From an uncultured Gammaproteobacteria bacterium (GTDB lineage: Bacteria > Patescibacteriota > Patescibacteriia > Magasanikbacterales > UBA922): 45,174 nucleotides of DNA. The translations under genes were made by a program, and so were the position numbers. Positions 1,702 through 16,121 of this stretch are shown piece after piece (the stretch's first letter is position 1; every line of letters begins with the position of its first letter). The notes beneath the pieces were generated by a model. It worked only from the letters and a program-made list of their open reading frames with translations. It had not been told where the DNA came from and ran no database searches. Where the stretch lies: positions 1-45,174 of the forward strand of contig CAZEYK010000003.1 in assembly GCA_964516055.1 (NCBI GenBank), in the 5' to 3' direction.

Positions 1702-2175
1702 ATGTTACGTTTTTTTCTCTTTTTGTTTTTTGTCATGGGGTTGATTGTCCCTCAGGCTTCTTTCGCTCAATCGCTTGAGAGTCAAATTTTGAATCAAGTA
1801 GATATGGGGGCGGTGAATGCACAGCTAAAGGCAGATTATAATCAAGATAGCATAGATCCTCGGCAAGTTATTGCTACCACAATTCAGGTTATTTTAAGTT
1901 TGCTGGGGACGGTATTTTTGGTTTTGGTTGCCTCTGGTGGGTATATTTATCTTACTGCTGGAGGAGATGAATCTCGGGTTACAAAGGCAAAATCAACCAT
2001 TACCAATGGAGTTATTGGTCTTGTGATTGTGCTGGGAGCATATAGTATTACGCTGTTTGTTATCCGTGGGTTTGACACTGCTGTTTCTGATGGTCAACCG
2101 GTCAATCGTTCGGATGTTCAACAAAACCCTGATTTACTTAATGAACGGTTAAACCAAGGAAATTTTTTTCGATAA
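1702..2175 (+). CDS. VirB2/TrbC-like pilin 4
   Basis: Motif GGYIYLTAGGDESRVTKAKSTITNGVIGLVIVLGAYSI; ATG 1702. Confidence 0.85.
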   Translation: MLRFFLFLFFVMGLIVPQASFAQSLESQILNQVDMGAVNAQLKADYNQDSIDPRQVIATTIQVILSLLGTVFLVLVASGGYIYLTAGGDESRVTKAKSTITNGVIGLVIVLGAYSITLFVIRGFDTAVSDGQPVNRSDVQQNPDLLNERLNQGNFFR

Positions 2176-2178
2176 TAT

Positions 2179-2703: not shown

Positions 2704-2735
2704 GTAATTTTTTATACATAAAAAGATAACGGGAT

Positions 2736-3821
2736 TTACTCGTTATCTTTTTTTTGTAATATGGTCTGGAGTATTATTTCTCCTGATTTTTGTATTTTTT
2801 TTGTTGTTATTTGAAGTTTCTTTGCTTGTTGGATGAGTTGGGGAAGGTCTGTTATGGATTTGGCAACAAGTCCATAGCCATGTTTTTCTATATATTGTGC
2901 ATTTGCTTCTTCTTGGCCGGGAATAGGGTTTATGGCGATGAGTGGTTTGCCAAGGGTTATACATTCTGTTGTGGTAAGGCCGCCTGGTTTTGAAATAATG
3001 ATGTCTGCTCGTCTCATGTATTGTTCTATGTTGTTTGTCCACCCAATGACGGTGATGTTTGGATTATTTTGTTTTTTCAATTTTTTTTGTAGTTTTTTGT
3101 TTTTTCCTGTTATCGCTGTGATTGTATAGGGGAAGGAAAGCGTTTTGGTGAGTGATTTTACAATTTTTTCTACTTGACCGAGTCCTTGTCCGCCCGACAT
3201 GACAAGAATGTTTGTGTCCGTCTGTTTTTTTTGTGGTGGTATATTTTGATAGAACACTGGATCTATTGGTATGCCAGAAACCGTAATTGTCTGTTTGTCT
3301 ATGCCACGTTCAATCATTTGTGTTTTTATTTGTTCTGTGGGGACAAAATAGTGATCGGTATTGTCGACAAGCCATAATTCATGGAGGCGATAGTCGGTGA
3401 TGACTGTTGATATAGGTGCATTGCAGCTATGTTTTTCTTTTCCTGAAAGATAAATGTCTGTACAGAAAAAATGTGTGGAAATGATATAATTAGGTTGATA
3501 TTCTTGAAGATATTTATGGAGCTTTTTTGTGTTAAAGTTTTTTATTTTTTTACTATATTTATTAGTAATATTTAGGAATGTTGCATTATTGCTGTGTTTG
3601 TATAGGATCCCCCATAGTTCGGGGCTTGTTTTGATAAGTAGGTCGTATGCGTCTACGGTGGCACGTTTGAATGGATTTGATAGATAGTGCAACATATCAA
3701 TGTGTTCTACATTGATATGTGGATATTGTTGGAGGATGGTTTTTTTTATGGCTTCGGCTGCTCGAGTGTGGCCGGATCCTGTTGAAAGGGAAAGGATGAG
3801 GATTTTTTTATTTTTGATCAT
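2736..3821 (-). CDS. MGDG synthase/UgtP-like glycosyltransferase (GT28)
   Basis: GSGHTRAA, TVITDY..H..W, GIPI, KPGGLTTTE, PIPGQEEAN motifs. Confidence 0.9.
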   Translation of the reverse strand: MIKNKKILILSLSTGSGHTRAAEAIKKTILQQYPHINVEHIDMLHYLSNPFKRATVDAYDLLIKTSPELWGILYKHSNNATFLNITNKYSKKIKNFNTKKLHKYLQEYQPNYIISTHFFCTDIYLSGKEKHSCNAPISTVITDYRLHELWLVDNTDHYFVPTEQIKTQMIERGIDKQTITVSGIPIDPVFYQNIPPQKKQTDTNILVMSGGQGLGQVEKIVKSLTKTLSFPYTITAITGKNKKLQKKLKKQNNPNITVIGWTNNIEQYMRRADIIISKPGGLTTTECITLGKPLIAINPIPGQEEANAQYIEKHGYGLVAKSITDLPQLIQQAKKLQITTKKIQKSGEIILQTILQKKDNE

Positions 3822-4031
3822 ATATAGTATATTCTATCTAAAAATGGATAAAAAAAGAAATATATGTCAGAATTTCATAAACAAGATAGAGAATTTTCAT
3901 ATATAGAGTCACCACCTGAAATAGAAAATGGATCAATTGAACATGAATATATTGAATCAATGGTTAGAGAGAGTCATCGTTCAGCATCTTTGGAGGATAT
4001 TTTATTGTTGCGTACTCTTGATAATACCGGG

Positions 4032-4835
4032 TCATGTATTGAATACGGTTACGTCTGAGTTGTTTTCTCCAATTTCTTTTGGTGATAACACTCGTTTTGT
4101 AGCCTGATGCCAAAGGAATTGAAAGAGAATGCGAAAGTTGTGAGCAATGATTGGGTCTTCTATCATGATGGCGATAGCACTTTCTTTTTTGAGCGTGACG
4201 AAGAGTAACGTATTTTTACAAATTTTTATATCCATCTCAAAGGGGAATTCTGTTACTTTAATAGTTCTTGTTTCACGAAGTTCTTTTCTGCTGGTGATAT
4301 TTATTTCGTTTGTGGAGGGAGCGATGACGCGGTTGAATATTTCTCTTGATATCCGTTTTTTTATGAATTTTTTTAAGTAGTCTGAAATAAATTTTCCCAT
4401 TTCTCCTTTGTCTTCGATACTGTCTATTGGTTCGCGAATGTCGAGGAGTTTTTCATAGGCGTTTATAATTCCTTGCTTTCCTTCAAAATATTGTACTCCT
4501 TGTTTGTGGTAACTGAGGTTATACATTGACGTAAGATTTCCGAGAACATCCTGTAGGGTGTTTTTTTGTTGTTCAAGTTCTTGGTGTTGTCTTTGTATGA
4601 TGTCTTCAAGTTTGCTGGGGTGTTTGGCTGTGTAGGTTTTCTTTTTGTCTGTTTCTTTTTTTTCTATGAGATCCCATTCTTCTAGGCTGGTGATGATGTT
4701 ATATAAGTCACCGCGTTTGTAGGGGACGGCATCAAGGATGGTTTGTATTGTTGACGGGCCAATTTTTAGGAGGGTTTGGTATACTTCGGCATCTTTTTCT
4801 GAGAGGCCGAGGTGTTCGAGGGCTTCGAAGTGCAT
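4032..4835 (-). CDS. TrmB-family transcriptional regulator
   Basis: LGLSEKDAEVYQTLL HTH start and YFEGKQGI linker typical of CPR TrmB proteins. Confidence 0.85.
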   Translation of the reverse strand: MHFEALEHLGLSEKDAEVYQTLLKIGPSTIQTILDAVPYKRGDLYNIITSLEEWDLIEKKETDKKKTYTAKHPSKLEDIIQRQHQELEQQKNTLQDVLGNLTSMYNLSYHKQGVQYFEGKQGIINAYEKLLDIREPIDSIEDKGEMGKFISDYLKKFIKKRISREIFNRVIAPSTNEINITSRKELRETRTIKVTEFPFEMDIKICKNTLLFVTLKKESAIAIMIEDPIIAHNFRILFQFLWHQATKRVLSPKEIGENNSDVTVFNT

Positions 4836-4887
4836 AGTAAGAGGGGTTAGTGGTATGATGTAGTAGTGAGTAGTGGGGGGAGTATTG

Positions 4888-4922
4888 TGTCATCCTGAGC
4901 TATCGTTTCGCTCAGGATGACA
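4888..4922. repeat. REP-like palindrome TGTCATCCTGAGC-N9-GCTCAGGATGACA
   Basis: Perfect 13-bp inverted repeat; related copy at 5837-5971. Confidence 0.7.
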
Positions 4923-5144
4923 GATATAGTGCTTATTTTAGCCAAATTTTTGTATTTTGTGTATCTTTTTGGGTGATTTTTTTGTGATGTTCTGACAGTT
5001 TTTTTGGCTAGGTTATGCCTACTATAGCATATTTGTTTTTGTTTGTCAAGATATTTTGACACTAAGATATTATTTTATTATAAAATATATTTTGCTACAT
5101 TAAGCTAAACTTTGTTAAAAATATAAAAATAGTGCCACGTAGCA

Positions 5145-5173
5145 TTGACAAAAGTGACTGAATAGGTTATAAT
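5145..5173 (+). promoter_or_regulatory. Consensus sigma70 promoter
   Basis: TTGACA (5145-5150), 17 bp spacer, TATAAT (5168-5173). Confidence 0.85.
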
Positions 5174-5179
5174 GCGATG

Positions 5180-5382
5180 TTATGATAAAGAAAAGGAAAG
5201 AGAAACGGAAGACCTAAGTAACTTACAAATTATCTATCTGAGGAAGGAGAGAGCCAAGGATAGTATATAGCGCCATAGTTTTACCCGTTGGGTGATCAGC
5301 TAAAAGTTGACACATCCGGTAGGTTTGGAATGAGGCAGACACAAAATATTTATTACAACTCTCTCCACCAAGAGAGTTTTTT
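5180..5382 (+). ncRNA. Candidate ~200-nt small RNA or attenuator leader
   Basis: Bracketed by the consensus promoter and a terminator; only an 11-codon ORF from ATG 5182 inside. Confidence 0.45.
5357..5382 (+). terminator. Intrinsic terminator
   Basis: AACTCTCT-ccacca-AGAGAGTT followed by a T tract. Confidence 0.7.
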
Positions 5383-5516
5383 GTATGGTATTTATACAGT
5401 ATTTATTTTCCTTAGTGTGGTTTAGAAAAAGATGATTATTTGGAAAAGTGTATAAAAAAAGTTCATTAAATAAGAAAAAGCAACACGAAATAGAGATGTT
5501 CTGCTATAGTGGCACA

Positions 5517-5790
5517 TCAATGAGTTGTTTTGAGAAGTAAGGAAGAGTTTTTTCCCTGGAATCGTTTCATGCTTGACGGTGATGATGGGGAATGGAATTC
5601 TTCTCTACTTGTCGGAATAATTCTGACTGGGTATGGAGATTGTAGTTTGATAGGCCGAAAGGTTTTGATAACTCTCTCATGATACCTTTATCTAGATAAT
5701 ACCGAGTGCGTTCCGTTTTCATAGCGTCGAAAGATGAAATGGAAGCTGGGACATTCTGTATTAGGCAGAATAAGTAGTACGTTTTTTACA
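5517..5790 (+). ncRNA. Candidate ~270-nt structured ncRNA
   Basis: Extended -10 TGCTATAGT (5502-5510); long hairpin 5535-5610, hairpin 5611-5627, two GAAA-capped stems. Confidence 0.45.
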
Positions 5791-5836
5791 AGTTATACTT
5801 TTTCAGAATTTGGGAGCAAAGTGTTTGGTAACAAAG

Positions 5837-5971
5837 ATGTTATCCTGAGGAGTCCGGAGGGCGATGTGAGGATTTCGTTGTTAAACGATCCACATGGTTC
5901 ATTGAGATCCCTCGACGCCCCGGCTATTGCCGTGGTTGCTTCCGCCAAAGGCGGACACGGCGGGATGACAT
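5837..5971. repeat. Composite REP-like palindrome containing TCCGCCAAAGGCGGA
   Basis: Ends ATGTTATCCTG / CGGGATGACAT resemble 4888-4922; internal hairpin 5941-5955. Confidence 0.6.
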
Positions 5972-6137
5972 ACTCGTTCTATATACTTTGCTCTCCGGTT
6001 CTGGAAGCTGAGGTTCGTCAATTCCTCAACAATAAAATATTGACTTTCGCGGACGAGAACAACCTTGCCCTGTAAAACATGGGCACTCCTGTCACTGAAA
6101 AGTGAGTCCGCTAGGAGAAGATACGGAGAAAAACAAA

Positions 6138-6473
6138 ATGGCGACCTACAACGTCAACGCCCGCATCGTCACCGTCAACGCCAACTCCGCCACCCTGCTG
6201 AAGATCGGTTTCGCCGACCCGGCCCAGAACGACCAGATCGTGCGTGACGCCGTCGCGGGCCTCGAGGCCTGCGGCGAGCTGAACGGCGAGCTGGTCCTGT
6301 TCAACGGCCCGGCCAGCCTCCCGGTCGCGTGCGCCCTCGCCCACGGCGTGGCGCACAAGTACGGCGCGGTGGCCTGCTTCGACCCGAAGCTCTCGGGGTA
6401 CGTGGTGTGCATCACCCACAACCCCAGCTTCCAGCTCGGGCAGGTCATCCCGGCCTCCGAGGTGACGGAGTAG
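6138..6473 (+). CDS. csx3: Csx3/Crn3-like cyclic oligoadenylate ring nuclease
   Basis: 111 aa with NGPASLPVACALAH and AVACFDPKLSGYVVCITH, matching the Csx3 pattern (G-x-x-P...H...DP[RK]L...V...H); GGAG upstream. Confidence 0.75.
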   Translation: MATYNVNARIVTVNANSATLLKIGFADPAQNDQIVRDAVAGLEACGELNGELVLFNGPASLPVACALAHGVAHKYGAVACFDPKLSGYVVCITHNPSFQLGQVIPASEVTE

Positions 6474-6590
6474 TCGCTCAAACGTGAGCAAACCTCCCCA
6501 GCGTCAAGGGGTACGCTAGATCGGAGGGAAATCAACCCCAACAACGCCCGAACACTCGGGCAACTCGGTAGCAACTGCTGCCAACTGCAT

Positions 6591-6673
6591 CTCGGGTTCG
6601 ATGATGAGACTAGCACTCAACTCATCGTTCCCCTTTAGTTCTTAATCTTTCTTGATTGAGGAGTGAAGGGGAA
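6591..6673 (+). repeat. Two-hairpin TAGCACTC element, copy 1
   Basis: GATGAG-acTAGCACTCaa-CTCATC, then a 20-bp stem 6628-6673. Confidence 0.85.
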
Positions 6674-6702
6674 TTTCCTAAAACTACAAAAAAGGAGGAA
6701 CA

Positions 6703-7284
6703 ATGAAAGTTGTCCTCATGGGCCCACCGCGCAGTGGAAAAAGCTGCTTGCGGCAGGGTCTGAAAGATGCGGTGCGGCGCGTTCCTGGAGCGCCGTATCC
6801 GTTCGTTATCACTGCGTGCCCTGACGGGGAGGGCGCGTGGTTCCAGGAGACGGTGAACGTGGATCCCGAAAAGGCAGCTGAACTGAAGGCTGCTTACAAA
6901 TCCACGTTCACCACTGAATTCGTCCAGCGGGTGGCGGATTCGGTGAAAAATTGTACCCTCCCGCTCACGCTCGTGGATATTGGCGGTATCCCGAGCGAAG
7001 AAAATCGGCGCATTTGCGCCACCGCCACCCATGCCGTCCTCCTCGCGGGCGACATGGGACGTCTGCCCGAGTGGCGTGCATTTTGCGAGGAACTGAACAT
7101 CACTATCCTGGCGGAGGTGTTCAGTGATTATCACGGTCAGGAAGATATTGTCCTCGTTCTCGGCGAGGACAATATCTATCGCGGATCTGTGCACCATCTG
7201 GAGCGCGGTGAAGCGGTGGGAGAGCGCCCCACGATCAAAGCGCTCGCCGAGATCCTCGCGGACATGGCCAACCGCGGGGAGTGA
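6703..7284 (+). CDS. P-loop NTPase of the type found fused to or beside Csx3
   Basis: Walker A GPPRSGKS, ACPDGEGAW, LVDIGG and THAVLL motifs; AAGGAGG RBS. Confidence 0.7.
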   Translation: MKVVLMGPPRSGKSCLRQGLKDAVRRVPGAPYPFVITACPDGEGAWFQETVNVDPEKAAELKAAYKSTFTTEFVQRVADSVKNCTLPLTLVDIGGIPSEENRRICATATHAVLLAGDMGRLPEWRAFCEELNITILAEVFSDYHGQEDIVLVLGEDNIYRGSVHHLERGEAVGERPTIKALAEILADMANRGE

Positions 7285-7790
7285 AACTGGCCAGCATGGA
7301 GGAAACATGCGACTTGTTCTTGAGCGCCACCGGCATAAGGCGTGATGACAAAATACCGGCATATGGCTCCCGTATGAGCTTATCATCGACTCCGACTTGG
7401 ATAATACGGTATCTAAGCGGACGGTTGATCCACGCACGGATTGAGCGCATGACTGATTTCATGCAACACCCTTTGGAGGTACCCAGCCAATGGGCACTCC
7501 GAGCGCCACTCTATAAGGCGCAGACAGCTCTGTATGAGCTCAAATATTATAGAGCGTCGCCGTTACGACGTATCTTGCACCCACTGATTGTTTCGGCAAA
7601 ATGTGGGCAGCTGGTCCCTGGCAGGACTGAGCGGATGACTGAAATCATCCATTGCAGAATAGGAGCAAAGACTTGCTCATTGCAATTGTCAGGCGGGGTT
7701 AATCTTCCTCCCGCCGAAGAAGCTGCAAAATCCTTTTGTGCAGGTAAGAGCAAGAGGTGCGGTTGTCTTGGCCCGCAGAAGCCAGACACA
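7285..7790 (+). ncRNA. ~500-nt densely structured RNA region (3' UTR or ncRNA)
   Basis: More than 12 consecutive hairpins, complementary loops 7370-7375/7404-7409, pseudoknot 7758-7788. Confidence 0.55.
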
Positions 7791-7873
7791 CTCGGGATTC
7801 ATCATCGACATAGCACTCGATCGATGATTCCCCTTGAGTCCTTAATCTGTATTGATTGAGATCTGAAGGGGAA
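7791..7873 (+). repeat. Two-hairpin TAGCACTC element, copy 2
   Basis: ATCATCGA-caTAGCACTCga-TCGATGAT, then stem 7828-7873; 61/83 identical to copy 1 without gaps. Confidence 0.85.
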
Positions 7874-8014
7874 TAACATCCTTTATCTCGTTTGTCTGCA
7901 TTGTTGCAGATAAGGTAACTCATGGTGAGCGAGATAATCTTTTACCATAAGAAAAGAGATAATGGGGAATACCAAGGTAGCTTGGAAATAACCTGTTGTC
8001 TCAAGGAGAAGCAC

Positions 8015-8458
8015 TTGAGTAAAATCAAGGTGCTTCGCGGCCTCCCCGGTGCGGGGAAGAGTACGTTTGTCAAGGGGAATTTCCCCGAGGCAACCGTGCT
8101 CTCCGCCGACGATTATTTCGTCGGTGAGGACGATGTCTACCGGTTCAATCCGGCCGACATCGGACTCGCGCACGGCCGCTGTTTTCGTCTCGTCATCGAG
8201 GCGTTGCAGCGGGGGGATGAGCTGGTAGTGGTGGACAACACCGCTACCACAATTGCCGAGGTTGCTCCGTACATGCTTGCAGCGCAAGCGTACGGATATG
8301 ACGCAGAGATCATTACTTTGCGTTGCGACCCGGCGATTGCCGCCTCCAGGAACATTCATGGTGTTCCGGAGCCTCTGGTCATGAAAATGGCCGAGGCTCT
8401 TGAGGCGGGCTCTCAGGCTTTGATGCCGTGGTGGCAACACTGCGTCGTCGAGGTCTGA
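8015..8458 (+). CDS. AAA_33 / N4BP2-like P-loop kinase (polynucleotide-kinase-like)
   Basis: RGLPGAGKST, SADDYF, VVVDNT, RNIHGVP motifs; TTG start after AAGGAG. Confidence 0.8.
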   Translation: MSKIKVLRGLPGAGKSTFVKGNFPEATVLSADDYFVGEDDVYRFNPADIGLAHGRCFRLVIEALQRGDELVVVDNTATTIAEVAPYMLAAQAYGYDAEIITLRCDPAIAASRNIHGVPEPLVMKMAEALEAGSQALMPWWQHCVVEV

Positions 8459-8580
8459 GATACCCAGGCCGCGATTAACCGTACCGGCGGTAAACCGGGA
8501 CAGACACTTAGGTGTTTGCGTGTTACACGCTAGAGTAGGAAATTCCAAGCGACCTTGGGATGAGACTACAGTAACAACCA

Positions 8581-8662
8581 CTCGGATCGATGACGAGACT
8601 AGCACTCAACTCGTCGATCCACTTGGATTCATAATTTAGAAAAATTGTGGATTGAAGTGGAT
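8581..8662 (+). repeat. Two-hairpin TAGCACTC element, copy 3
   Basis: GACGAG-acTAGCACTCaa-CTCGTC, then a 21-bp stem 8617-8662. Confidence 0.85.
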
Positions 8663-8681
8663 AGTAGTTTTCTTTACAAAT

Positions 8682-8710
8682 AAAAAACAACCCTCTACAG
8701 AGAGTTGTTT
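8682..8710 (-). terminator. Terminator of the 8724-9044 gene
   Basis: Hairpin followed by a T tract on the minus strand. Confidence 0.55.
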
Positions 8711-8723
8711 ACAAGGCGACAGG

Positions 8724-9044
8724 TTAGACCAGATCAAGGTTGAGATGTTTGATGATTTTTTCTACTTTCTTGTCGGTACGTTTTTGGTGCATTGCCATAG
8801 CGGCTATTTCTACTTCTTGCTTGCGATGGAGTCCGATGAAGCCATCAACGTGATCGATCATTTCGTTTCTGGTTTGTTGGATACTTTGTTCCAAATCGGT
8901 TTGGGTTTGTTGCAGTTCATCACGGACCTCTTTGATTTCTTGCTTGAATTCTGTACGAACGTCTTGCAGGTCTTGCTTGGTTGCACCGTTATCCTTAATA
9001 AAGGTGACGATCTCTAGGATGTCTTGTAGTTTTTGTTCCTCCAT
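8724..9044 (-). CDS. Small coiled-coil hypothetical protein (AT-rich, CPR-type)
   Basis: ATKQDL motif and heptad pattern; host-like codon usage. Confidence 0.75.
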   Translation of the reverse strand: MEEQKLQDILEIVTFIKDNGATKQDLQDVRTEFKQEIKEVRDELQQTQTDLEQSIQQTRNEMIDHVDGFIGLHRKQEVEIAAMAMHQKRTDKKVEKIIKHLNLDLV

Positions 9045-9411
9045 ACAAAAATAGATAAAAAGTAAGTATAGGAAGTATAAAGGGGTGTGACGCTTGTGTC
9101 AATGTGTGAAAATATAAAACAATTTAGCATAATGTGTTATCACTAATCGTTTAGAGAGAGGCGATAAGGTGGTAGCCAGATAGGTGTATTTCTCTCTCGG
9201 GAGAAATTTTTTGTTTGAGCAGGTAACGCGAGTTGTATGTTTAGACAAGAAATTGATGTAGATCTTTTTCTTGATCTCTCTAGTGTATTTTGATCATTAC
9301 AAATGAAAACATGAACTGGCTGCAATACAAGGAATATGCTTGTTTTTTGTATTGTGGTCAGTTCGAAAAAACAACGATCTAAAAAATGGATCAAAAAAAG
9401 GGAGTCTACCC

Positions 9412-12400
9412 ATGGCTAACAAGATGCTTGGTTTCTGGAAAATGGCCCTCGAGATCACTGCCGCGATCCTGTTTGGGAAGGGCATTCTGTCGTTCCCGAC
9501 GGGGACCGGCAAGACCACGCAGTGCCCGCAGCTGGTCTATGACTGGTTGCGAAAAAAAAATGATAATGGTTTGATTCTTGTCTCTGTCCCGCGTCGCGTG
9601 CTGGCTATCGAGCTGGCGCGACGTGTGGCGGAGGAGATGGGCTCCACCCTCGGGGAGCTCGTCGGTTACAAGATCCGAGGGGAAGAGGAGAAGTCGGAAA
9701 AAACTCGAATCCTTTTCGTGACCGAGGGCATGCTTCGTGCGTTGATCCAGAGCAACCCGTCCCTCGACGGGGTGAGCATGATCCTGTTCGACGAGTTTCA
9801 CCAGCGTTCGCTCATGAACGACTTCAATGTCGCTCTTGTCGAGCGGGCGCAACAGGAAGGCTCAAAGGTCAAGTTCCTCCTGATGTCTGCGACGATCGAT
9901 GCTTCGTCTTTGGCGGAGCACTTCGGTTGTTCTGTCGTTGATGGAACCGTTTTCGGGACGCAATTCGCGATCGAGGAGCGCTATCTCGATCGCGATCCGT
10001 CGGACCTCGTAGAGGCGGCGGTGGAGCATGTGCAGCAGCTCGTCAGCGAGCAGCGTGGAAACGGCCTCGTGTTCATGCCCGGCAAGGGCGAGATCATGCA
10101 GGTCGTGAACGAGCTCAAGCTGGTGGGCTTGCCGAGCGACGTCACGGTCTTGCCGCTTCACGGTGGCTTGATCGGTGATGATCGCTCGGCACCGTTTCGT
10201 TCTCGTAAGGGACGGACGGTGATCATCGCGACCGACATCGTCGAAACCGGTGCCACGTTGCCGGACATCACGTGGGTCGTAGACTCCGGGCTTGCTCGGG
10301 AGGTTCGCTACGATGTAATCTCGGATATCGGTGGGCTTCGGCTCGCCGAGGTGGCGAAGGATCGGTTGAAGCAGCGACGGGGACGGTGTGGTCGTGTGCA
10401 GGCTGGCGTGTATGTTGGACTTTTCACCGAGTTCAACAAAAACGCTCGGCAGGCGCAGACCACTCCGGAGATTTTCCGGAAACCGCTTCGCGAGGTCATT
10501 TTGACCATCAAGTCCATCGGGCTCTCCAGGGAAGGAGAGCCCATTCGGCTGCTCGACAGTCCGCCCAAGGCCAACTGGAAGCATGCGAAAGCCCAGCTTC
10601 AGGCCTTGGGGTTCGTGGCGACCGACAAGGACGCCAACATCACGCCGCTCGGCCGCAAGGCTGCGCGGATGGGGTGCGACCCCCGTGAGGCGGCGATGCT
10701 CCTCAAGGCTGAGGAGCTCGGCTGTCTTCAGGAAATGGCGTGGGCGGTTGCCGAGATGCAAACCTCCAAGAACCTCCTCGACACGTCCAAGGGGCAGTCG
10801 TGGGAGGCGGAGGCTGCTCACGCGCAGTTTCGCAGTGTCAAAACCTGCGATGCGTGGGCGGTCGTGGAGGTTTGTCGGCAGGTTGCTAGCCCGCCGAAGG
10901 GTCTGTCGCTTGGCAATTGGTGCCGTCAGAACTTTGTGAGCCATGAGGCTCTGAAGGAAGTGAAATCTGGTGCCGAGCAGCTGCTCAAGCGGTTCAAGGG
11001 CGACGCCAAGAAGGCGCGCCCGGTGACCGAGAGCACGCTGCGCCAGGCGATTCTGGCAGGTTTGCCTGATCGGATCTTCCAACACGACCACCGGGATCGA
11101 TACACCAATGTCGATTCCGGCGACTCCCTGATCCTTGGGAGGGAGTCGGTCGTTCGTAGCACCACTACGAACATGATCGTTGCGTCGTGGGAAGCTCGGG
11201 AAATCCAAACTCGCGCTGGTGGGACGCTTCGGCTGATCACCAGCGCTATCACTATCGAGCAGGATGCTCAGTGGCTGCGAGCGGCTCTCCCTCATCTCGT
11301 TGAGGTCGAGGAAGGTATCGACCCTCGTTACGAGATGGAACTGGATTTGGTCACTTCGGTGACGCGGGTTCGGTTCAAGGGTGAGTTGGTCTCGGCGGAA
11401 GAGCGGGTGAAGAACCCGCATCACCCCAAGGCGGCGCAGGTTTTTGCGCAGTACCTTGCCGAAGCCAGGGATGGCTCGGTGTCGGTGCTGTTCGAGAATC
11501 AGGCGCAGGTCGCGCGAGCCAAAGCGTTCAATCTTCGCGCCGGGGAAGAGGTCTTCGAGGTCACCAACCTCGTTGATTTTTACATCGGTGTTTGTGCTGG
11601 AGCGAGGAACGTCGGTGAGCTGAGTAAGCATATCTGCTCGCTCGATGACTTGCGTCTGCCTGTGCTCGATAGAGAACTCATCGAGCTCGTGGAGCAGGAG
11701 GCTCCCGAGTCCCTCGAGATCCTCGGCAGTTTGCTGCCGGTTGAGTACAGTGACGGCAAGGCTGACCCTCGGGTGAAGCTCTCCAAGGAGATGGTGACGG
11801 CGAATAGCTGGATCCAGCTCCCGGACGACGGAGTGCGTCTCCCAGGCGGTCGCTCGGTGGAGGTGGTGGTGAGCTTCGGCTACTACACCACCCTCGCTGA
11901 CACCAACATCTCGCAGCTCAAGGCGAAGGTGCGCGAGCACCTGAACTGCGAGCAGTGGGATGCGTGGTGTGATGATCGTCCCGAAATTGCTTTGCCCAAC
12001 GTGTCCGACGATGAGTCGGTGATCCCGTTTGTCACGGCTTCCTACGGGAAGTGCGTGGTGACGGGGGAGCCTCTCATGGCGTATGGAACCGTTGTTTGGG
12101 ATTCTTGGTACGCCAAGTTTTCCGTGAAATGGTTGTTCCGCAACGTCGACGACGGTCAACGCGCTGCCAACGAGGCGGCCGTGAAGCTCGAGTCACTCCG
12201 TGAGGAGGCTCGGATGAAACGGCTCGCCGAGAAGGCGCGTGAAGAGGCTGAGGCCGTCAAAGCCGTGCTCTACGCCCTCCAGTCCCACAAGGATTGGTAT
12301 GGCTTGGAGTACGAGTTTCGTCGGGCCGCCGAGTTCCGTGGCGGTTACGGTTGCTCCATTCCTTCCGACGACGTCGACGAAGCCCGCGCTTGGACCGTCG

Positions 12401-12978
12401 AGACCAAGGCCATGACGGCCGAGGTTAAGACGGCTTTGTCCAATCTCGCGTGTAAACGCGAGGAGGAAGAGCAGCGGAAGGTCGAGGAGAAGGCTGTTGC
12501 CGAGCAGCGGCGGAAGGACGAGAATGAAGCATATTCTCGGCTCGAGCTGGGGCTTAGCTCTGCGGTGAAGCGCTTGCGCTTTTTCCGTGGACAGCCGCAG
12601 TTCACGGTTTCTTTCGTGGCTGGGTCCGATGGCCAGTGGATCAACGAGCAGGACATCAACGGTTCTATCTGGGACTGGGCCCGCTCCGGCGGTGCTTGGG
12701 ACCAGAAGGTCCGCCGCAATGATGCGGCTGTTGTTGATTTCGCGTTCGTGGCTAATGGTCGTCTCGAGGTGCTCGCGTACTACGAGCATCGCAATGACCG
12801 TCCGTCCTTTGTCCTTCGGTGGACGTGGACGGGTGATTCTGAGCAGCCCACTGCCCCCAAGAAAACGGCTAAGCCAAAGAAGGTGGTCAAAGTCGTTGCT
12901 TCGCAGCAGTCTTCATCAACTCCTCCTTCGGAGGATGCAATGGCCGTGCTGCTCGGCAAATGGGGCAAAAAGCGCTGA
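9412..12978 (+). CDS. HrpA/HrpB-like DEAH-box RNA helicase with long C-terminal extension
   Basis: PTGTGKTTQ, PRRVLA, TEGML, DEFH, MSAT, FMPG, LHG, ATDIVETGAT, QRRGRCGR; GGGAG RBS before ATG 9412. Confidence 0.9.
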   Translation: MANKMLGFWKMALEITAAILFGKGILSFPTGTGKTTQCPQLVYDWLRKKNDNGLILVSVPRRVLAIELARRVAEEMGSTLGELVGYKIRGEEEKSEKTRILFVTEGMLRALIQSNPSLDGVSMILFDEFHQRSLMNDFNVALVERAQQEGSKVKFLLMSATIDASSLAEHFGCSVVDGTVFGTQFAIEERYLDRDPSDLVEAAVEHVQQLVSEQRGNGLVFMPGKGEIMQVVNELKLVGLPSDVTVLPLHGGLIGDDRSAPFRSRKGRTVIIATDIVETGATLPDITWVVDSGLAREVRYDVISDIGGLRLAEVAKDRLKQRRGRCGRVQAGVYVGLFTEFNKNARQAQTTPEIFRKPLREVILTIKSIGLSREGEPIRLLDSPPKANWKHAKAQLQALGFVATDKDANITPLGRKAARMGCDPREAAMLLKAEELGCLQEMAWAVAEMQTSKNLLDTSKGQSWEAEAAHAQFRSVKTCDAWAVVEVCRQVASPPKGLSLGNWCRQNFVSHEALKEVKSGAEQLLKRFKGDAKKARPVTESTLRQAILAGLPDRIFQHDHRDRYTNVDSGDSLILGRESVVRSTTTNMIVASWEAREIQTRAGGTLRLITSAITIEQDAQWLRAALPHLVEVEEGIDPRYEMELDLVTSVTRVRFKGELVSAEERVKNPHHPKAAQVFAQYLAEARDGSVSVLFENQAQVARAKAFNLRAGEEVFEVTNLVDFYIGVCAGARNVGELSKHICSLDDLRLPVLDRELIELVEQEAPESLEILGSLLPVEYSDGKADPRVKLSKEMVTANSWIQLPDDGVRLPGGRSVEVVVSFGYYTTLADTNISQLKAKVREHLNCEQWDAWCDDRPEIALPNVSDDESVIPFVTASYGKCVVTGEPLMAYGTVVWDSWYAKFSVKWLFRNVDDGQRAANEAAVKLESLREEARMKRLAEKAREEAEAVKAVLYALQSHKDWYGLEYEFRRAAEFRGGYGCSIPSDDVDEARAWTVETKAMTAEVKTALSNLACKREEEEQRKVEEKAVAEQRRKDENEAYSRLELGLSSAVKRLRFFRGQPQFTVSFVAGSDGQWINEQDINGSIWDWARSGGAWDQKVRRNDAAVVDFAFVANGRLEVLAYYEHRNDRPSFVLRWTWTGDSEQPTAPKKTAKPKKVVKVVASQQSSSTPPSEDAMAVLLGKWGKKR

Positions 12979-13140
12979 CACACCAACCGACCAAACATAA
13001 AGAAGTAATGTCGTTATAAACTCTGCTTCTTGCCTCTTCTCACAGAGGTTCGCATGGCGCGAAGTTAGTGAGATGGATACACACTCAGACATCCATTCCT
13101 GATTCCTACGGGATGATGGAGAACGTCTGTTTTTATATAG

Positions 13141-13219
13141 CACTTGGTTTGACGAGAAGATTAGCACTCATCTCGTCAGCCACCTTGAGTTTTTAATAAT
13201 AATTGAAGACTTAAGGTGG
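13141..13219 (+). repeat. Two-hairpin TAGCACTC element, copy 4
   Basis: TGACGAGA-agatTAGCACTCa-TCTCGTCA, then an 18-bp stem 13180-13219. Confidence 0.85.
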
Positions 13220-13498
13220 AAGGTGTTCTACCATCGTTTCTTTCCGCGATGTAAAAGAAGTGAATTTTGACAATATAAAAAGGAGTGTCTCCATGTGGAT
13301 TTCGGCACTCCAGTTCCTGGCACGTTCGCATAACCTCTTGCTTCGAGGTGAGCGTGCACTTCAGCCGTACGATGACGTGCGGCAAAAACTGTTTTTCTCG
13401 GCTGACTGTACATCATTTGCCATTCCGACTGTTCTATTAACCAATCGTGGTTGATGGAATTGAGGATTTACTCAAAACTTTTTCGGAGAAACAAAATC

Positions 13499-13921
13499 AT
13501 GAACGATAACACTACTCGGCTGTTTTTCGTGAACGAGGATCGTTGTGTTTTTTTGACGAACGCGGGTCGCAAGACTTGCGTTCGTGATATCATCGCGGCG
13601 CTGGCGGAGGAGGGGATCGAGATTTCTCGTTCTTCTATTTGGCGTTTGCAGACGGGGCGGGCGGAGTTTTTCCAGCCCGATTATCGTGAGTCGTTTCCTT
13701 CGTTGTCTCCGTATGCTATCGCTTTTGTCGAGCTCACGGAGGAGGACCGTGAGCTCTCTGAGCGTTTGAACCTCACCGAGTTCGCTCGGGGGTTTGGTAT
13801 CTCTCGGAAGACCGCCCGTAGTTTTCTCGAGCGCGGGTGGTTTGAAGTGAATCCGCGCAACGAAGTGAAGGTCCGGGTGGTTCTCGACCCTGGGCGGATT
13901 CGTCCGCCTGATGAGTTTTGA
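13499..13921 (+). CDS. GC-rich hypothetical protein with two HTH-like segments
   Basis: ISRSSIWRLQTG and NLTEFARGFGISRKTARSFLERG; GGAG upstream. Confidence 0.65.
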   Translation: MNDNTTRLFFVNEDRCVFLTNAGRKTCVRDIIAALAEEGIEISRSSIWRLQTGRAEFFQPDYRESFPSLSPYAIAFVELTEEDRELSERLNLTEFARGFGISRKTARSFLERGWFEVNPRNEVKVRVVLDPGRIRPPDEF

Positions 13922-14040
13922 TTTTTTTCGTTCTTTTTTGGGGAATCGTTTTTCCGCGATTCCCGTTCATCCAAAATGGTTTAGTCTTTAGACAGTTTTG
14001 TATGGGTATGATATAAATAATAACTTGTGATTGTTTGTAT

Positions 14041-14124
14041 ACAAAAATCCCTCGGTTTGTCCTTCCTATAAGCGTCTCTCTCCATTTGCTTGTAGGTTGG
14101 GTGTATAAACCGAGGGATTTTTGT
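14041..14124 (+). other. Long hairpin at the right edge of the island
   Basis: ACAAAAATCCCTCGGTTT / AAACCGAGGGATTTTTGT plus an inner stem with G-T pairs. Confidence 0.6.
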
Positions 14125-14250
14125 TTTTCACTCATGAGGACTATATCATGCTTTGTCTCGTTGATGTTGTAAATTTATTGCAACTGTATTATTATTATAC
14201 ATAATAATCTTTTTGCTCCTTGTTTATCTTTTTTATTATTGTATTTTTTT

Positions 14251-14970
14251 ATGACAAATCCACTAATTCATCTTGGGTTATCCAAAAAAGAGGTCACTAT
14301 TTATCAGGTGCTCATGGAGTTTGGACGGTTGTCTATTGCAGACATTGTGAAACACACCCATTTGCATCGGCATGATGTCTATGCCGTGTTACCAGACATG
14401 CTTGAAAAAGGATTACTCACGACTATTGATGAAGGAAAGCGAACGTTTTATCGTGCTGCGCCGCCATCTCAGTTGCAGCACTTATTTGCTGTTGTCCAAG
14501 AGCAAGTTGGTGATGAAATTCGACGTCTTACAGAGGCATTTTCTCCCGATGCTGTGCAGCCAGCGTTTCGTTTTTTGGAAGGGAAAAAGGGAATTCGTTT
14601 TGTGTTTCATGATTTAGTACACAGTCTTAATAAAGGAGAAATTTTTTATAAATATAGTTCAAGAAAATCAACAAAACTTCCTGATGATTGTTTGCCAAAA
14701 GGATATCGAGCACTTCGAGATAAAAAACAACTTGAACGTTTTGTAATCACCAGTGAACAATTAAAGAGTATAAAAAAGAAACGTCTTGAGCGTTCTATAA
14801 AAACGATTCCTACTGATTTTGATTTATTTGAATATGATATCACGCAACTTATTTATAAAAACAAGATTGCTTTTATTGATTATTCATCAATGACGGCCAT
14901 TTTAATTGAGAGCCCACTTTTGGCTTCGTTTCAAAAACGGTTATTTCAGTTGCTATATAAATTGTTGTAG
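14251..14970 (+). CDS. TrmB-family transcriptional regulator
   Basis: LGLSKKEVTIYQVL HTH, FLEGKKGI, IYKNKIAFI. Confidence 0.85.
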   Translation: MTNPLIHLGLSKKEVTIYQVLMEFGRLSIADIVKHTHLHRHDVYAVLPDMLEKGLLTTIDEGKRTFYRAAPPSQLQHLFAVVQEQVGDEIRRLTEAFSPDAVQPAFRFLEGKKGIRFVFHDLVHSLNKGEIFYKYSSRKSTKLPDDCLPKGYRALRDKKQLERFVITSEQLKSIKKKRLERSIKTIPTDFDLFEYDITQLIYKNKIAFIDYSSMTAILIESPLLASFQKRLFQLLYKLL

Positions 14971-15090
14971 CATAAGTTTGGTAATGTATTATTTTTAATC
15001 ATGTTCGTAGGAGGTGTTTTGATTTTTTTTGTTTCGCTAAAAAACATTTTGTATACTATACAACTATTACTCAATCTATCTAGTAGTCAT

Positions 15091-15930
15091 ATGACCACAT
15101 CTCGTTTACCAGAATTTCGTACCGCATCTTTTTTTGACTCATTTCATTCTCTTAATACACCTGATCATCCGGCTTCTTGGCAGGAGGAAGCATTTCAATC
15201 TGGTTGGAAAAATAAACCGGATTTTTTTGATACGCTCCATAGATTTTCTTTTGGCACGATGTCTATTGGGGATACTGTTGTGAATATGACCGTTCTTGGA
15301 ACAGAAGATCTTGCTCATCAGTCATGGAAACAGTGTGTTACTCAAGAGGTTATTCAGGATATTGATGGTACATTGCAGCATATTGCCAAGCAATGTGCCA
15401 GTATACATGCACTGCGGGAAATATCATTTTGTATGAGTCAACCAATTAATCCAGAGAATAAACAGCCTGCCAATGGGTACGCTCCAGTATCTATTTCACA
15501 AGATCACGAAACAGGACAGTCATTCGAGACTCCGTCAGGTGTTATTATTCTTTTTCCTCATGTTGTTGATGCAGTGCATGCGCATGAACCGTATCGGGGT
15601 GTTATTCCCGAATTGTCCCATATACAGGGGATTGTTACCCATGAGTGGGTACACCAATTTATGGCAGCGGAAGGCACCTCGTTTTGTGATGAATGGTTAT
15701 CTTTTGTTCCCGGATGGGAATATATACAAGGAAAATATGTTTACACAGCGGAAGAATCATTGCCAACTCCGTATTGTTCCCATAATCCGGTGGATGATTT
15801 TGTGGAGTGTATGACGATATATCTTTGGCAACCAGAACTTTTAGAGGTTAATCATCCTGAACGATTTTTTTTCTGTAAAGAATTTGTATCTTTTTTACAA
15901 GAATCGGCAGGTGTTGAAGAACATGCGTAA
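15091..15930 (+). CDS. Putative zincin metallopeptidase
   Basis: HEWVH plus downstream Y...NPVDDFVE. Confidence 0.6.
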   Translation: MTTSRLPEFRTASFFDSFHSLNTPDHPASWQEEAFQSGWKNKPDFFDTLHRFSFGTMSIGDTVVNMTVLGTEDLAHQSWKQCVTQEVIQDIDGTLQHIAKQCASIHALREISFCMSQPINPENKQPANGYAPVSISQDHETGQSFETPSGVIILFPHVVDAVHAHEPYRGVIPELSHIQGIVTHEWVHQFMAAEGTSFCDEWLSFVPGWEYIQGKYVYTAEESLPTPYCSHNPVDDFVECMTIYLWQPELLEVNHPERFFFCKEFVSFLQESAGVEEHA

Positions 15931-15965
15931 TGTGTGGTTTTTGCATCAGATTATTCTGTGAGTGG

Positions 15966-16121
15966 TTAATACATATCAATAATATTTCTCAATTTTTCTT
16001 GAGCAAAGTTGGTGGTATCTGTGGCTGTTTTTTTTATTTCTCCAAATCCGTTTGTTATTTTTCCTAGTATTCCTGTGGATTCAGTATCTTCATCTTTTTT
16101 TTGTCCTTGTGTGTGGGACAT
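15966..16121 (-). CDS. Small hypothetical protein
   Basis: 51-aa ORF from ATG 16121, just downstream of the DUF3179 gene. Confidence 0.4.
   Translation of the reverse strand: MSHTQGQKKDEDTESTGILGKITNGFGEIKKTATDTTNFAQEKLRNIIDMY

What the first reader, a model, noticed from the sequence alone, without database searches (positions are those of the whole stretch)
6138..13219. Candidate new system: foreign-codon genes each capped by a conserved two-hairpin TAGCACTC element
Seen: four unrelated ORFs are each followed, after a ~120-500 nt structured region, by the same ~80-nt element (6591, 7791, 8581, 13141). Each element has a CTYGG box, then hairpin 1 whose stem covaries (GATGAG/CTCATC, CATCGA/TCGATG, GACGAG/CTCGTC twice) around a 12-13 nt loop with invariant TAGCACTC. 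Hairpin 2 follows, 18-21 bp, with fixed geometry CTT-N7-TAAT-loop-ATTG-N7-AAG in all four copies. The TAAT/ATTG pairing needs a U-G wobble in every copy, so the structure works single-stranded on the + strand. The base of hairpin 1 overlaps the 5' arm of hairpin 2. No integrase, reverse transcriptase or transposase is in the region. Inference A: hairpin 2 is an RNase III-type processing stem that releases monocistronic mRNAs, each ending in a protein-bound tag, perhaps for packaging or delivery into the host cell. Inference B: these are ssDNA recombination or HUH-nicking sites of an integron-like cassette array.
Basis: partly seen in the sequence, partly recalled or inferred. Interest (0 to 1): 0.95.

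Follow-up and report, generated by a model that had tools for sequence, protein, structure and literature searches.

The report
Structured RNA tags on gene cassettes
Each gene of a GC-rich accessory gene array in a tiny groundwater bacterium ends with the same folded ~85-base RNA signal, and the array's leader carries the exact complement of part of that signal, which together look like a gene-array system that has not been described before.

Summary
Four ~85-nt elements (6588-6676, 7787-7876, 8577-8665, 13139-13223, + strand) share a CACTCGG-type box, hairpin 1 with a GCAC(TC) loop, and an 18-21-bp hairpin 2. Both helices covary, folding favours the sense strand, and no Rfam family matches.

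The system is larger than reported. Related copies occur in at least 13 genomes of the same CPR family. Every copy checked lies 3' of a same-strand ORF with high GC3 (0.6-0.98; genome GC 39%).

Where the contig allows, the arrays lie downstream of a conserved platform. It consists of a divergent TrmBL2-like DNA-binding gene and a structured leader RNA (window 5670-5780). The leader holds an invariant 11-mer containing the complement of the box. It occurs once per genome in 27 of 107 family genomes, including all 10 with elements. It was found in 0 of 150 other genomes of the class.

No integrase, reverse transcriptase or HUH transposase is consistently linked. Metatranscriptome contigs cover the island but hardly its flanks, and they break at the elements.

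Best reading (about 0.45): a sense-strand RNA punctuation module that processes and stabilises cassette transcripts, RNase III-like and possibly leader-guided. An integron-like recombination site remains a rival (about 0.2). Function is untested.

The parts
4032..4835 (-). Platform gene: TrmBL2-like winged-helix DNA-binding protein (267 aa, native GC), divergent from the array
   Evidence: Pfam TrmB N-terminal domain, E 4e-13. A profile of 7 orthologues matches PDB TrmBL2 over its full length, E 2e-9. Foldseek best hit is TrmBL2, E 5e-15. Orthologues lie divergently beside 7 arrays.
5145..5385 (+). Candidate ~200-nt small RNA between platform gene and leader: consensus promoter 5145-5173, terminator 5357-5378
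   Evidence: The promoter matches 12 of 12 consensus positions and a terminator-like hairpin follows. RNA-library contig at 5196-5376. The terminator block is 96% identical in the leaders of two other genera.
5670..5780 (+). Leader RNA 'block C'. Invariant TACCGAGTGCG at 5700-5710 contains the complement of the box CACTCGG. It is predicted to pair internally with a box-like ACA(C/T)TCTG about 60 nt downstream.
   Evidence: The 11-mer is invariant in 7 leaders of 6 genomes. Consensus fold: 10 of 26 pairs have compensatory change. Model R3 hits 27 of 107 family genomes, once per genome except one with two, and 0 of 150 others in the class.
6138..6473 (+). Cassette 1 ORF: Csx3 (111 aa), GC3 0.98
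   Evidence: PF09620, E 6e-9; GC3.
6474..6587 (+). Structured 3' UTR of cassette 1 (hairpin plus pseudoknot-like module)
   Evidence: The same module follows the stop codon in L053, in L055 (twice) and in L067. This was read by eye, not modelled.
6588..6676 (+). Element 1 (box, hairpin 1, hairpin 2)
   Evidence: R1 100 bits; fold -36.6 kcal/mol.
6703..7284 (+). Cassette 2 ORF: P-loop protein (193 aa), the conserved partner of Csx3
   Evidence: No Pfam family. 59-74% identical homologues lie next to Csx3 in other loci.
7285..7786 (+). Long non-coding 3' region of cassette 2
   Evidence: RNA-library contigs at 7289-7635 and 7328-7726. No Pfam family for the overlapping frame 7281-7859.
7787..7876 (+). 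Element 2
   Evidence: R1 94 bits; fold -34.4 kcal/mol.
7922..8458 (+). Cassette 3 ORF: AAA_33 / polynucleotide-kinase-like P-loop kinase (178 aa)
   Evidence: PF13671, E 2e-14; weak Pnkp matches.
8577..8665 (+). Element 3
   Evidence: R1 99 bits; fold -32.2 kcal/mol.
9412..12978 (+). Cassette 4 ORF: HrpA/HrpB-like DEAH helicase (1188 aa), GC3 0.72
   Evidence: Below the curated cut-off for HrpB/HrpA, E 1e-92. Only 5 relatives at about 50% identity, then HrpB at 31-36%.
13139..13223 (+). Element 4
   Evidence: R1 85 bits; fold -36.1 kcal/mol.
14239..14970 (+). Second TrmB-like paralogue on the far side of the island
   Evidence: PF01978, E 8e-12.

Best explanation
The element is the terminal module of a structured 3' UTR. 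It acts as RNA on the sense strand and closes every cistron of a GC-rich accessory-gene array. The array is driven from a conserved platform: a divergent TrmBL2-like regulator gene and a leader RNA. Proposed mechanism (inferred, not shown): the array is transcribed through the leader. The long hairpin 2 then serves as an RNase III-type processing and 3'-end-protecting stem that separates the cistrons. The single-stranded box and the hairpin-1 loop, which share the core CACTC within a GCAC-type motif, are recognition sites for one trans factor. The only candidate visible in the sequence is the leader's invariant anti-box, which could pair with 7-11 nt at each box, much as an anti-repeat pairs with a repeat. 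A protein is equally possible. Shown: structure, strand bias, position, co-occurrence with the leader, and presence in RNA libraries. Inferred: cleavage, stabilisation, and box:anti-box pairing in trans.
For: Structure: on 15 copies from 6 genomes aligned by MAFFT, 90.7% of cells pair and 16 of 19 pairs show compensatory change. 0 of 500 shuffles reach this, and slid registers give at most 56%. Strand: the sense fold is as stable or more stable in 21 of 23 unique copies. In helix 2 the cells are WC 251, G-U 34, A-C 8. Position: all 20 of 20 model hits lie 3-643 nt after a same-strand open frame of GC 0.55 or more. Those ORFs have GC3 0.6-0.98 against 0.2-0.55 for neighbours. Leader: the 11-mer holding the box complement is invariant in 7 of 7 leaders. 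The leader model hits 27 of 107 family genomes, including 10 of 10 with elements. Elements lie downstream on the same strand and contig in 8 of those 10. Expression: in three RNA libraries, contigs cover 6003-8591 and 11340-13119, while the flanks have depth 0-0.8. Contigs stop at 6592 and resume at 6691 (element 1), resume at 7880 or 7905 (after element 2), and stop at 8591 and 13119 (elements 3 and 4). Enzyme: RNase III is encoded at C17:5633-6019. Hairpin 2 is 18-21 bp with internal mismatches. No T-run terminator was found at any element.
Against: No RNA end was mapped. The RNA runs exist here only as low-depth contigs (2-12x). Contigs cannot show ends or strand, and they also break at other places, for example 7067 to 7289. 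A stable hairpin may simply drop out of cDNA. G-T pairs also form in single-stranded DNA, so the strand bias does not exclude sense-strand DNA. In G046, native genes and a tRNA on the other strand sit between cassettes, so a single polycistronic precursor cannot be general. Last cassettes carry the element too. The anti-box is predicted to be paired inside the leader, and it never varies, so there is no covariation evidence for trans pairing. Window copies 1-3 offer only 6-7 complementary bases. My census model R2 had helix 1 slid by one column, so counts of genomes are lower bounds.
Confidence: 0.45

Rival explanations
1. Integron-like cassette system at the DNA level. The element is a folded recombination site (attC analogue) carried by each cassette. 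The leader block C, which holds both the box-like motif and its complement in one stem, is the attI analogue. An unlinked or unrecognised recombinase moves the cassettes.
For: Co-oriented arrays of diverse ORFs: 5 of 27 scanned have any Pfam family. Among 45 GC-rich ORFs, only one inter-genome pair exceeds 60% identity. Each ORF ends in an imperfect hairpin whose tip varies in length, with insertions of 20-60 nt in three copies. A platform gene lies divergently beside 7 arrays. The order of the Csx3 and P-loop genes differs between genomes. Intergenic modules are repeated at 83-94% identity within a genome while the ORFs differ. Many platform loci end at contig ends, as hypervariable arrays often do.
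Against: The platform protein is a TrmBL2-like DNA binder whose PLD-like C-terminal domain has no invariant histidine in the alignment. Tyrosine recombinases number 2-3 per genome and lie far from arrays in 4 of 5 genomes. RT was found in 1 of 5 genomes. Y1 HUH is absent in 2 of 5. The folded strand is the sense strand, whereas in integrons, as I recall, the bottom strand is the recombined one. No cassette polymorphism was seen between a genome and three metagenome contigs of the same organism at 99.6-100% identity.
Confidence: 0.2
2. Transcription-level control. The elements act on RNA polymerase as reiterated anti-termination RNAs of the two-hairpin put type. Alternatively, the box, the loop motif and the leader 11-mer are double-stranded operator sites for the TrmBL2-like protein, which silences or licenses the GC-rich array.
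For: Each element sits 27-46 nt before the next cistron in the window. The same short motif recurs in the leader and twice per element. A DNA-binding protein of a chromatin-protein family is the constant neighbour.
Against: Rho was not found in this 95.6%-complete genome, so there is less need for anti-termination. Compensatory changes and the G-U excess point to a folded single strand, not to double-stranded operator sites. Elements also follow last cassettes that face convergent native genes.
Confidence: 0.12
3. Export tag. The cassettes are kept at a GC-rich host's codon usage, and the 3' module marks their mRNAs (or DNA) for packaging or delivery into the host cell.
For: GC3 stays at 0.90-0.98 in three Csx3 orthologues whose four-fold sites are only 37-58% identical. 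The same genes have GC3 0.40-0.64 in four genomes without elements. Passages of a 2026 preprint (10.64898/2026.06.21.733656) state that known hosts of this phylum are GC-rich and that these bacteria have low expression potential for GC-rich genes. Cargo has a conflict-system flavour: Csx3, SAVED, MoxR.
Against: No export machinery is linked. There is no evidence that the RNA leaves the cell. Recombination-driven GC-biased gene conversion could raise GC3 without any host. Proteins could be delivered as proteins.
Confidence: 0.06
4. Inert repeat: a MITE- or REP-like selfish or decaying sequence with no role in the array.
For: It is a short imperfect palindrome found in several copies.
Against: There are only 4 copies in the genome, all in one locus and one orientation. 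The structure is kept through compensatory change across genera. Position relative to ORFs is fixed in 20 of 20 hits. It co-occurs strictly with the leader.
Confidence: 0.03

Closest known systems
Intercistronic RNase III processing hairpins of the phage T7 early region (recalled from textbook knowledge, not from a call)
   Same: Irregular hairpins of about two helical turns on the sense RNA between successive co-oriented genes. They are thought to cut a long transcript into units and leave a protective 3' stem.
   Different: Here a conserved box and a second hairpin with a conserved loop precede the long stem. A leader carries the complement of the box. The genes have extreme GC3. Cleavage is not shown.
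Integron (intI, attI, cassettes with attC)
   Same: A platform gene divergent from an array of co-oriented, diverse, mostly orphan ORFs. Each ORF ends in an imperfect hairpin with a variable tip. Codon usage is foreign to the host.
   Different: There is no integron integrase. The platform gene is TrmBL2-like. No attC core sites are visible. The sense strand is the folded one. Long structured 3' UTRs and 5' leaders lie between ORFs.
CRISPR leader-repeat arrays with tracrRNA and RNase III processing
   Same: A leader is followed by a reiterated structured repeat. A leader-side RNA carries a sequence complementary to part of every repeat.
   Different: The units between repeats are whole genes of 0.3-3.6 kb with their own ribosome-binding sites. 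There are no cas genes in the platform; Csx3 is only one of the cargo genes. Complementarity is 7-11 nt.
REP/BIME elements of enterobacteria
   Same: Imperfect palindromes at 3' ends of genes that can stabilise upstream mRNA.
   Different: REPs are dispersed in hundreds of copies and linked to RAYT (Y1 HUH) genes. Here there are 1-6 copies, confined to one array, and no consistent Y1 gene.
TrmBL2, archaeal chromatin protein (PDB 5bpd, 5box)
   Same: The platform protein matches it over the whole length by sequence profile and by predicted fold.
   Different: Bacterial, 18-19% identity. It is one member of a multi-copy paralogue family (1-17 per genome in 100 of 107 genomes). Its DNA binding has not been tested.

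Membership tests
Any Rfam family | Score at or above the family's gathering threshold | tested here: not met
   Only two tRNAs in the window at gathering thresholds. In 5900-13400 the best lenient match has E 0.46 and is not at an element; the two matches that overlap an element have E above 4.
Integron attC | Integron integrase (tyrosine recombinase) adjacent to the array | tested here: not met
   PF00589 gives 2-3 hits per genome in 5 genomes. The hits lie on other contigs or at least 120 kb from the arrays in 4 of the 5. In the window one lies 6 kb beyond the last element, beside tRNAs.
Integron attC | Conserved inverse core sites at the two ends of the hairpin (consensus recalled, letters not given) | tested here: not met
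   Reading the four copies and their reverse complements, a core-like heptamer appears in 2 of 4 hairpin-1 loops only. The base of hairpin 2 differs between genomes.
Integron attC | Folded, recombined strand is the bottom strand relative to the cassette ORF (recalled) | tested here: not met
   The sense strand folds as well or better in 21 of 23 copies; G-U 34 against A-C 8.
Integron attC | Array of co-oriented, varied cassettes each ending in the site | tested here: met
Intrinsic terminator | G+C-rich hairpin followed by a T-run | tested here: not met
   The terminator scan of 4800-9500 lists none at elements 1-3. The tails read GGGGAATTTCC, GGGGAATAACA, GTGGATAGTAG and GGTGGAAGGTG.
RNase III processing site (T7 type) | Double-stranded stem of about 20 bp between cistrons, and RNase III in the cell | tested here: met
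   Hairpin 2 is 18-21 bp. PF14622 hit at E 2e-38 in the genome.
RNase III processing site (T7 type) | Cleavage within the stem | not testable with these tools
   Only contigs of RNA libraries were available. They break at all four elements, which is a weak hint.
MITE / REP-BIME | Many dispersed copies in both orientations; associated transposase or RAYT | tested here: not met
   4 copies, one locus, one strand. Y1_Tnp is absent in 2 of 5 element-bearing genomes.
Retron or other RT-dependent element | Reverse transcriptase gene | tested here: not met
   PF00078 found in 1 of 5 element-bearing genomes, not in this one.
TrmB/TrmBL2 family (platform protein) | N-terminal winged helix, long coiled helix and C-terminal alpha/beta domain, matching over the full length | tested here: met
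   PF01978, E 4e-13. PDB TrmBL2 residues 13-263, E 2e-9. Model pLDDT 77. Foldseek TrmBL2, E 5e-15.

The most novel reading that the evidence does not exclude
A self-contained gene-array platform of CPR bacteria that is neither an integron nor a CRISPR array. A leader RNA uses its invariant anti-box to guide processing (or recombination) at the box that ends every cassette. The cassettes' synonymous sites are actively held at extreme GC, either to be read by a GC-rich host's translation machinery or as the footprint of very frequent cassette recombination.
Probability: 0.18. Interest if true: 0.95.

Novelty: categorically new. Interest (0 to 1): 0.85.

Why it matters
CPR/Patescibacteria make up a large share of bacterial diversity, yet how they regulate and exchange accessory genes is almost unknown. 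This locus offers a conserved architecture that can be tested directly: a regulator, a leader RNA, and reiterated 3' RNA modules.

It also carries a sharp evolutionary puzzle. Orthologous genes sit at GC3 0.9-0.98 inside these arrays and at 0.4-0.64 outside them, in genomes of about 39% GC. The high GC3 persists even though synonymous sites are saturated.

If the leader guides processing or recombination, this would be a new RNA-guided way to organise gene cassettes. If GC3 is kept for use in GC-rich hosts, it would bear on how these epibionts manipulate their hosts. Even in the most ordinary reading, it adds two RNA motif families that are absent from Rfam.

Tried and rejected
Known RNA families: Rfam gave nothing at gathering thresholds or in lenient mode.

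Strict 22-base pattern in genome contigs: 0 hits. The pattern was too narrow, since most relatives' copies would not match it either.

Looser pattern in metagenome contigs: 31 stretches. Only 6 carry true elements by R2. Five of these are the organisms already held (L102, L097, L104, L106, L105), and one is new (L085). The other 25 look like chance matches.

Insertion boundaries from the same-genus genome G001: it is only about 70% identical and synteny is broken, so this gave nothing.

Cassette polymorphism: metagenome contigs of the G046 organism and of this organism are 99.6-100% identical across the arrays. No variant was seen, so this says nothing either way.

A GC-rich donor: the helicase has 5 relatives at 48-54% identity (unnamed, or labelled only 'bacterium'), then HrpB at 31-36%. 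Csx3's nearest relative is 73% identical, and named relatives are Patescibacteria and cyanobacteria. No GC-rich donor lineage appeared.

A DNA-run joint 5093 to 14229 (skips 9135 bases, side 21 letters) might be an island-free variant. It rests on about 45 matching letters flanked by unlike sequence, so I do not count it.

The parts of the island without RNA contigs (8600-11300) are not interpreted.

The TrmB-like gene as a system-specific marker: rejected, because the family is multi-copy in 100 of 107 genomes. Only the orthologue next to the leader is specific.

Rho-dependent polarity as the rationale for the elements: weakened, because Rho was not found.

G201 (class sample, E 6e-4) was not examined.

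No supplementary files were read.

Literature: four full-text searches listed nothing on such arrays or elements; I saw the listings only. For preprint 10.64898/2026.06.21.733656 I saw four passages.

Full report
**1. The observation.**

- TAGCACTC occurs 5 times in the window against 0.75 expected.
- The whole fixed geometry, 22 specified bases, occurs exactly four times against none in 100 shuffles.
- The full 1.17-Mb, 103-contig genome (GC 38.7%) has 24 TAGCACTC sites, but only these four have the context.
- A covariance model built from the four (R1) finds them at E 1e-15 to 4e-19 and nothing comparable elsewhere in the genome.
- As RNA, the + strand folds at -32 to -37 kcal/mol with z-scores of -4.3 to -6.6. 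The - strand gives -22 to -27.
- Hairpins 1 and 2 abut rather than overlap. Hairpin 1 has two possible registers, because the sequence after the loop is partly duplicated.
- No Rfam family matches, either at gathering thresholds or in lenient mode over 5900-13400.

**2. The genes.**

The island 6100-13000 has 57-62% GC in a window whose other parts are 30-43%. Its ORFs are:
- Csx3 (PF09620).
- A 193-aa P-loop protein without a family.
- An AAA_33 / polynucleotide-kinase-like kinase.
- A 1188-aa HrpA/B-like DEAH helicase.

They are not an arbitrary set. The P-loop gene is next to Csx3 in 12 of 15 loci recovered from other species, including cyanobacteria. A helicase 53% identical lies 2.2 kb from Csx3 in one of these loci.

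A low-GC ORF on the other strand (8724-9044) separates cassette 3 from cassette 4.

**3. The family.**

R1 and a second model (R2, from 15 copies) find related copies in 10 of 107 genomes of the same family, in 9 of 56 genera. With filters off, three more genomes appear (G015, G043, G118). In a sample of 150 genomes from about 90 other families of the class, there was only one weak, unexamined hit.

I later saw that R2 had been given helix 1 slid by one column, so these are lower bounds.

On the MAFFT alignment of 15 copies with the correct register:
- 90.7% of cells pair.
- 16 of 19 pairs show changes on both sides.
- No shuffle out of 500 reaches the observed values.
- Slid registers give at most 56%.

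Other features:
- Only GCAC in the loop is nearly invariant across genomes. The box is mostly CACTCGG, with variants.
- Hairpin 2 keeps its shape while its sequence changes. In three copies it carries insertions of 20-60 nt at the tip.
- The sense strand folds as well or better in 21 of 23 unique copies.
- In helix 2 there are 34 G-U cells against 8 A-C cells. So the sense strand is the folded one.

**4. Position and cargo.**

All 20 model hits that were examined lie 3-643 nt downstream of a same-strand open frame of GC 0.55-0.69. With frames chosen by codon-position GC, these ORFs have GC3 0.6-0.97, against 0.2-0.55 for neighbouring native genes.

Of 27 GC-rich array ORFs scanned, 5 have a Pfam family: Csx3, AAA_33, helicase, SAVED and MoxR-type AAA. 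Among 45 such ORFs, only one pair from different genomes exceeds 60% identity.

The stretch between stop codon and element is itself structured and modular. A hairpin-plus-pseudoknot-like module follows the stop codon in the window's Csx3 cassette, in L053, twice in L055, and in L067. Other modules are shared by other cassettes. Whole intergenic modules of 240-575 nt recur within a genome at 83-94% identity, while the ORFs beside them differ.

**5. The platform.**

Seven arrays in six genomes start 1.0-1.9 kb from the start codon of a divergently oriented, native-GC gene of 260-270 aa. Its profile matches the archaeal chromatin protein TrmBL2 over the full length (E 2e-9). A model (pLDDT 77) has TrmBL2 as its best structural match (E 5e-15). 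The C-terminal domain has a PLD-like fold, but the alignment has no invariant histidine there. The wider TrmB-like family is multi-copy in 100 of 107 genomes, so only this orthologue is specific to the arrays.

Between the gene and the array, the leaders share collinear conserved blocks:
- In the window, one block is the terminator of a candidate ~200-nt small RNA. It has a perfect consensus promoter at 5145-5173, and an RNA-library contig covers 5196-5376.
- The next block, 'block C' (window 5670-5780), has an 11-mer that is invariant in all seven leaders: TACCGAGTGCG (window 5700-5710). It contains the exact complement of the box CACTCGG and of the loop core GCACTC.
- In the consensus fold, this stretch pairs with a box-like ACA(C/T)TCTG about 60 nt downstream, around a hairpin that covaries. 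10 of 26 pairs show compensatory change, and G-U again outnumbers A-C.
- Complementarity between the leader and individual boxes is 6-7 nt for window copies 1-3, 9 nt with one wobble for copy 4, and 10-11 nt for some G046 copies. This comes from my reading.

**6. Co-occurrence.**

A model of block C (R3) hits 27 of 107 family genomes, in 21 of 56 genera. There is one hit per genome, except two in G033, which has two arrays. The 27 include all 10 genomes with R2 elements.
- In 8 of those 10 genomes the elements lie downstream on the same contig and strand. In the other two, the leader and the elements are on different contigs that end nearby.
- In 18 of the 27 genomes the hit lies 0.7-2.3 kb from a TrmB-like match on the same contig listed, usually that genome's best one.
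- In all six further loci inspected, segments of 55-75% GC begin 200-800 nt after block C.
- None of 150 genomes from other families of the class has block C.
- A MAG labelled only as a Patescibacteria group bacterium (L067) shows a partial block C, then a small GC-rich ORF with the pseudoknot-like module and a diverged element.

These genomes are relatives, so the counts are not independent trials.

**7. What is not there.**

- Tyrosine recombinases number 2-3 per genome and are far from the arrays in 4 of 5 element-bearing genomes. In the window one lies at 19500-20582(-), beside two tRNAs.
- Reverse transcriptase is found in 1 of 5 of these genomes.
- Y1 HUH transposase is absent in 2 of 5.
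- Rho was not found in this 95.6%-complete genome.
- RNase III is present.

**8. Expression.**

The stretch is held by 24 aquifer or groundwater runs, three of them RNA libraries. These are kept only as contigs. Laid on window 2000-16000, the RNA contigs cover 6003-8591 and 11340-13119, while the native flanks have depth 0-0.8. The DNA run is even at 5-15. DNA carry-over therefore does not explain the pattern.

The contigs behave as follows:
- They begin at 6003, 6003 and 6006 in the three runs.
- They stop at 6592 and resume at 6691, around element 1.
- They resume at 7880 or 7905, after element 2.
- They stop at 8591 (in element 3) and at 13119 (20 nt before element 4).

Contigs of 2-12x depth also break elsewhere, and they cannot show true ends. 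This is a weak hint that RNA ends lie in the elements, or that the hairpins drop out of cDNA.

**9. The GC puzzle.**

Csx3 in the window, L066 and L067 is 60-69% identical in protein. Four-fold degenerate sites under identical residues agree in only 37-58% of cases, which is about what two G/C-only sequences give by chance. Yet GC3 is 0.98, 0.90 and 0.91.

The same two genes in four genomes without elements (L077-L080) have GC3 0.40-0.64, at similar protein distances. Cyanobacterial Csx3 has GC3 0.44-0.55. No GC-rich donor lineage appears among the nearest relatives of Csx3 or the helicase.

High GC3 is therefore either kept up inside the arrays or comes from an unsampled source. It starts at the start codon and falls to about 50% after the stop.

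The genome has about 25 further GC3-rich genes, most without the element. One is a DUF4407 gene at 31278-33395(-), which ends in an ordinary terminator.

**10. Interpretation.**

The data fit best a sense-strand RNA module that marks the end of each cistron in a dedicated array. I commit to processing and 3'-end protection at hairpin 2 by RNase III or a similar enzyme. The box and loop would be recognition sites for a trans factor, for which the leader's anti-box is the visible candidate (confidence about 0.45).

This works like the RNase III sites between phage T7 early genes, which I recall rather than tested. In its leader-to-repeat complementarity it works like tracrRNA-guided processing. 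It is a member of neither.

The integron-like reading (about 0.2) is kept alive by the cassette architecture, the shuffled gene order and the repeated junction modules. It lacks a recombinase and has the wrong strand. Transcription control through the TrmBL2-like protein or anti-termination (about 0.12) and an export tag (about 0.06) remain possible.

No family tested accepts the element (see the membership table). Four literature searches found no description. I therefore rate the system as new in kind. The caveats are that its function is inferred and that the library searched is not the whole literature.

Noticed in passing
window 5145-5385 (+): Candidate ~200-nt small RNA. It has a 12-of-12 consensus promoter, a terminator hairpin, and an RNA-library contig at 5196-5376. 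The terminator block is 96% identical in the leaders of G040 and G046. No Rfam match.
   Followed up: partly
window 6474-6545; L053 about 5689-5620(-); L055 8037-8110 and 9142-9215; L067 4049-4105: A shared module directly after the stop codon: a small hairpin, then AACCTCTCC, a stem-loop with a G-rich loop, the complement of the CT-rich stretch, and a downstream C-run that could pair with the loop (pseudoknot-like). This looks like a second unregistered RNA motif.
   Followed up: partly
window 6138-6473 and loci L066, L067, L077-L080: Orthologous Csx3 and P-loop genes have GC3 0.68-0.98 in element-bearing arrays and 0.40-0.64 elsewhere. Synonymous sites are saturated between the GC-rich copies.
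   Followed up: partly
window 31278-33395 (-), and about 25 ORFs on other contigs of the genome (C1, C4, C5, C6, C13, C14, C16, C21, C22, C27, C32, C38, C39, C61): Further GC3-rich genes (GC3 0.62-0.91) without the full element. The DUF4407 gene ends in an ordinary terminator. C13 and C38 have box-like motifs downstream, and C32 has a loop-like AGCACTC motif.
   Followed up: partly
window 18343-20582: A tyrosine recombinase gene (19500-20582, -) flanked by two tRNA genes (18343-18413 and 19366-19437, both -), 6 kb beyond the last element. The layout recalls an integrative element, but its link to the island is unknown.
   Followed up: no
L048 7884-10544, L051 3932-6601, L055 2441-5077, L050 17338-19683(-), L056 11740-14232: A large protein (780-890 aa; split into 610- and 209-aa ORFs in L056) with a C-terminal GNAT domain lies beyond the TrmBL2-like gene in five arrays. 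No homologue was seen at this place in the window.
   Followed up: no
G040, many contig ends: 27 fragments of a Y1 (IS200/IS605-type) transposase gene, mostly at contig ends. This is an expanded insertion sequence unrelated to the arrays.
   Followed up: no
window 5093 / 14229 in DNA run X2: One contig joins these two places and skips 9135 bases, which is the whole island between the two TrmB-like genes. It rests on only about 21 letters per side, so it may be a chance likeness.
   Followed up: no
L079 and L080 after Csx3; L051 about 9190-9260; L055 about 8330-8400: Another short conserved 3'-UTR block (GTGAGCC, a few bases, GGAAGCAGAT, CC) is shared between genomes with and without the element.
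   Followed up: no
window 6489-6540 in DNA run X2: A separate 8710-nt contig of the same sample matches this 52-nt piece of the Csx3 3' UTR with 3 differences. The UTR module therefore also exists at another locus or in another organism of the community.
   Followed up: no
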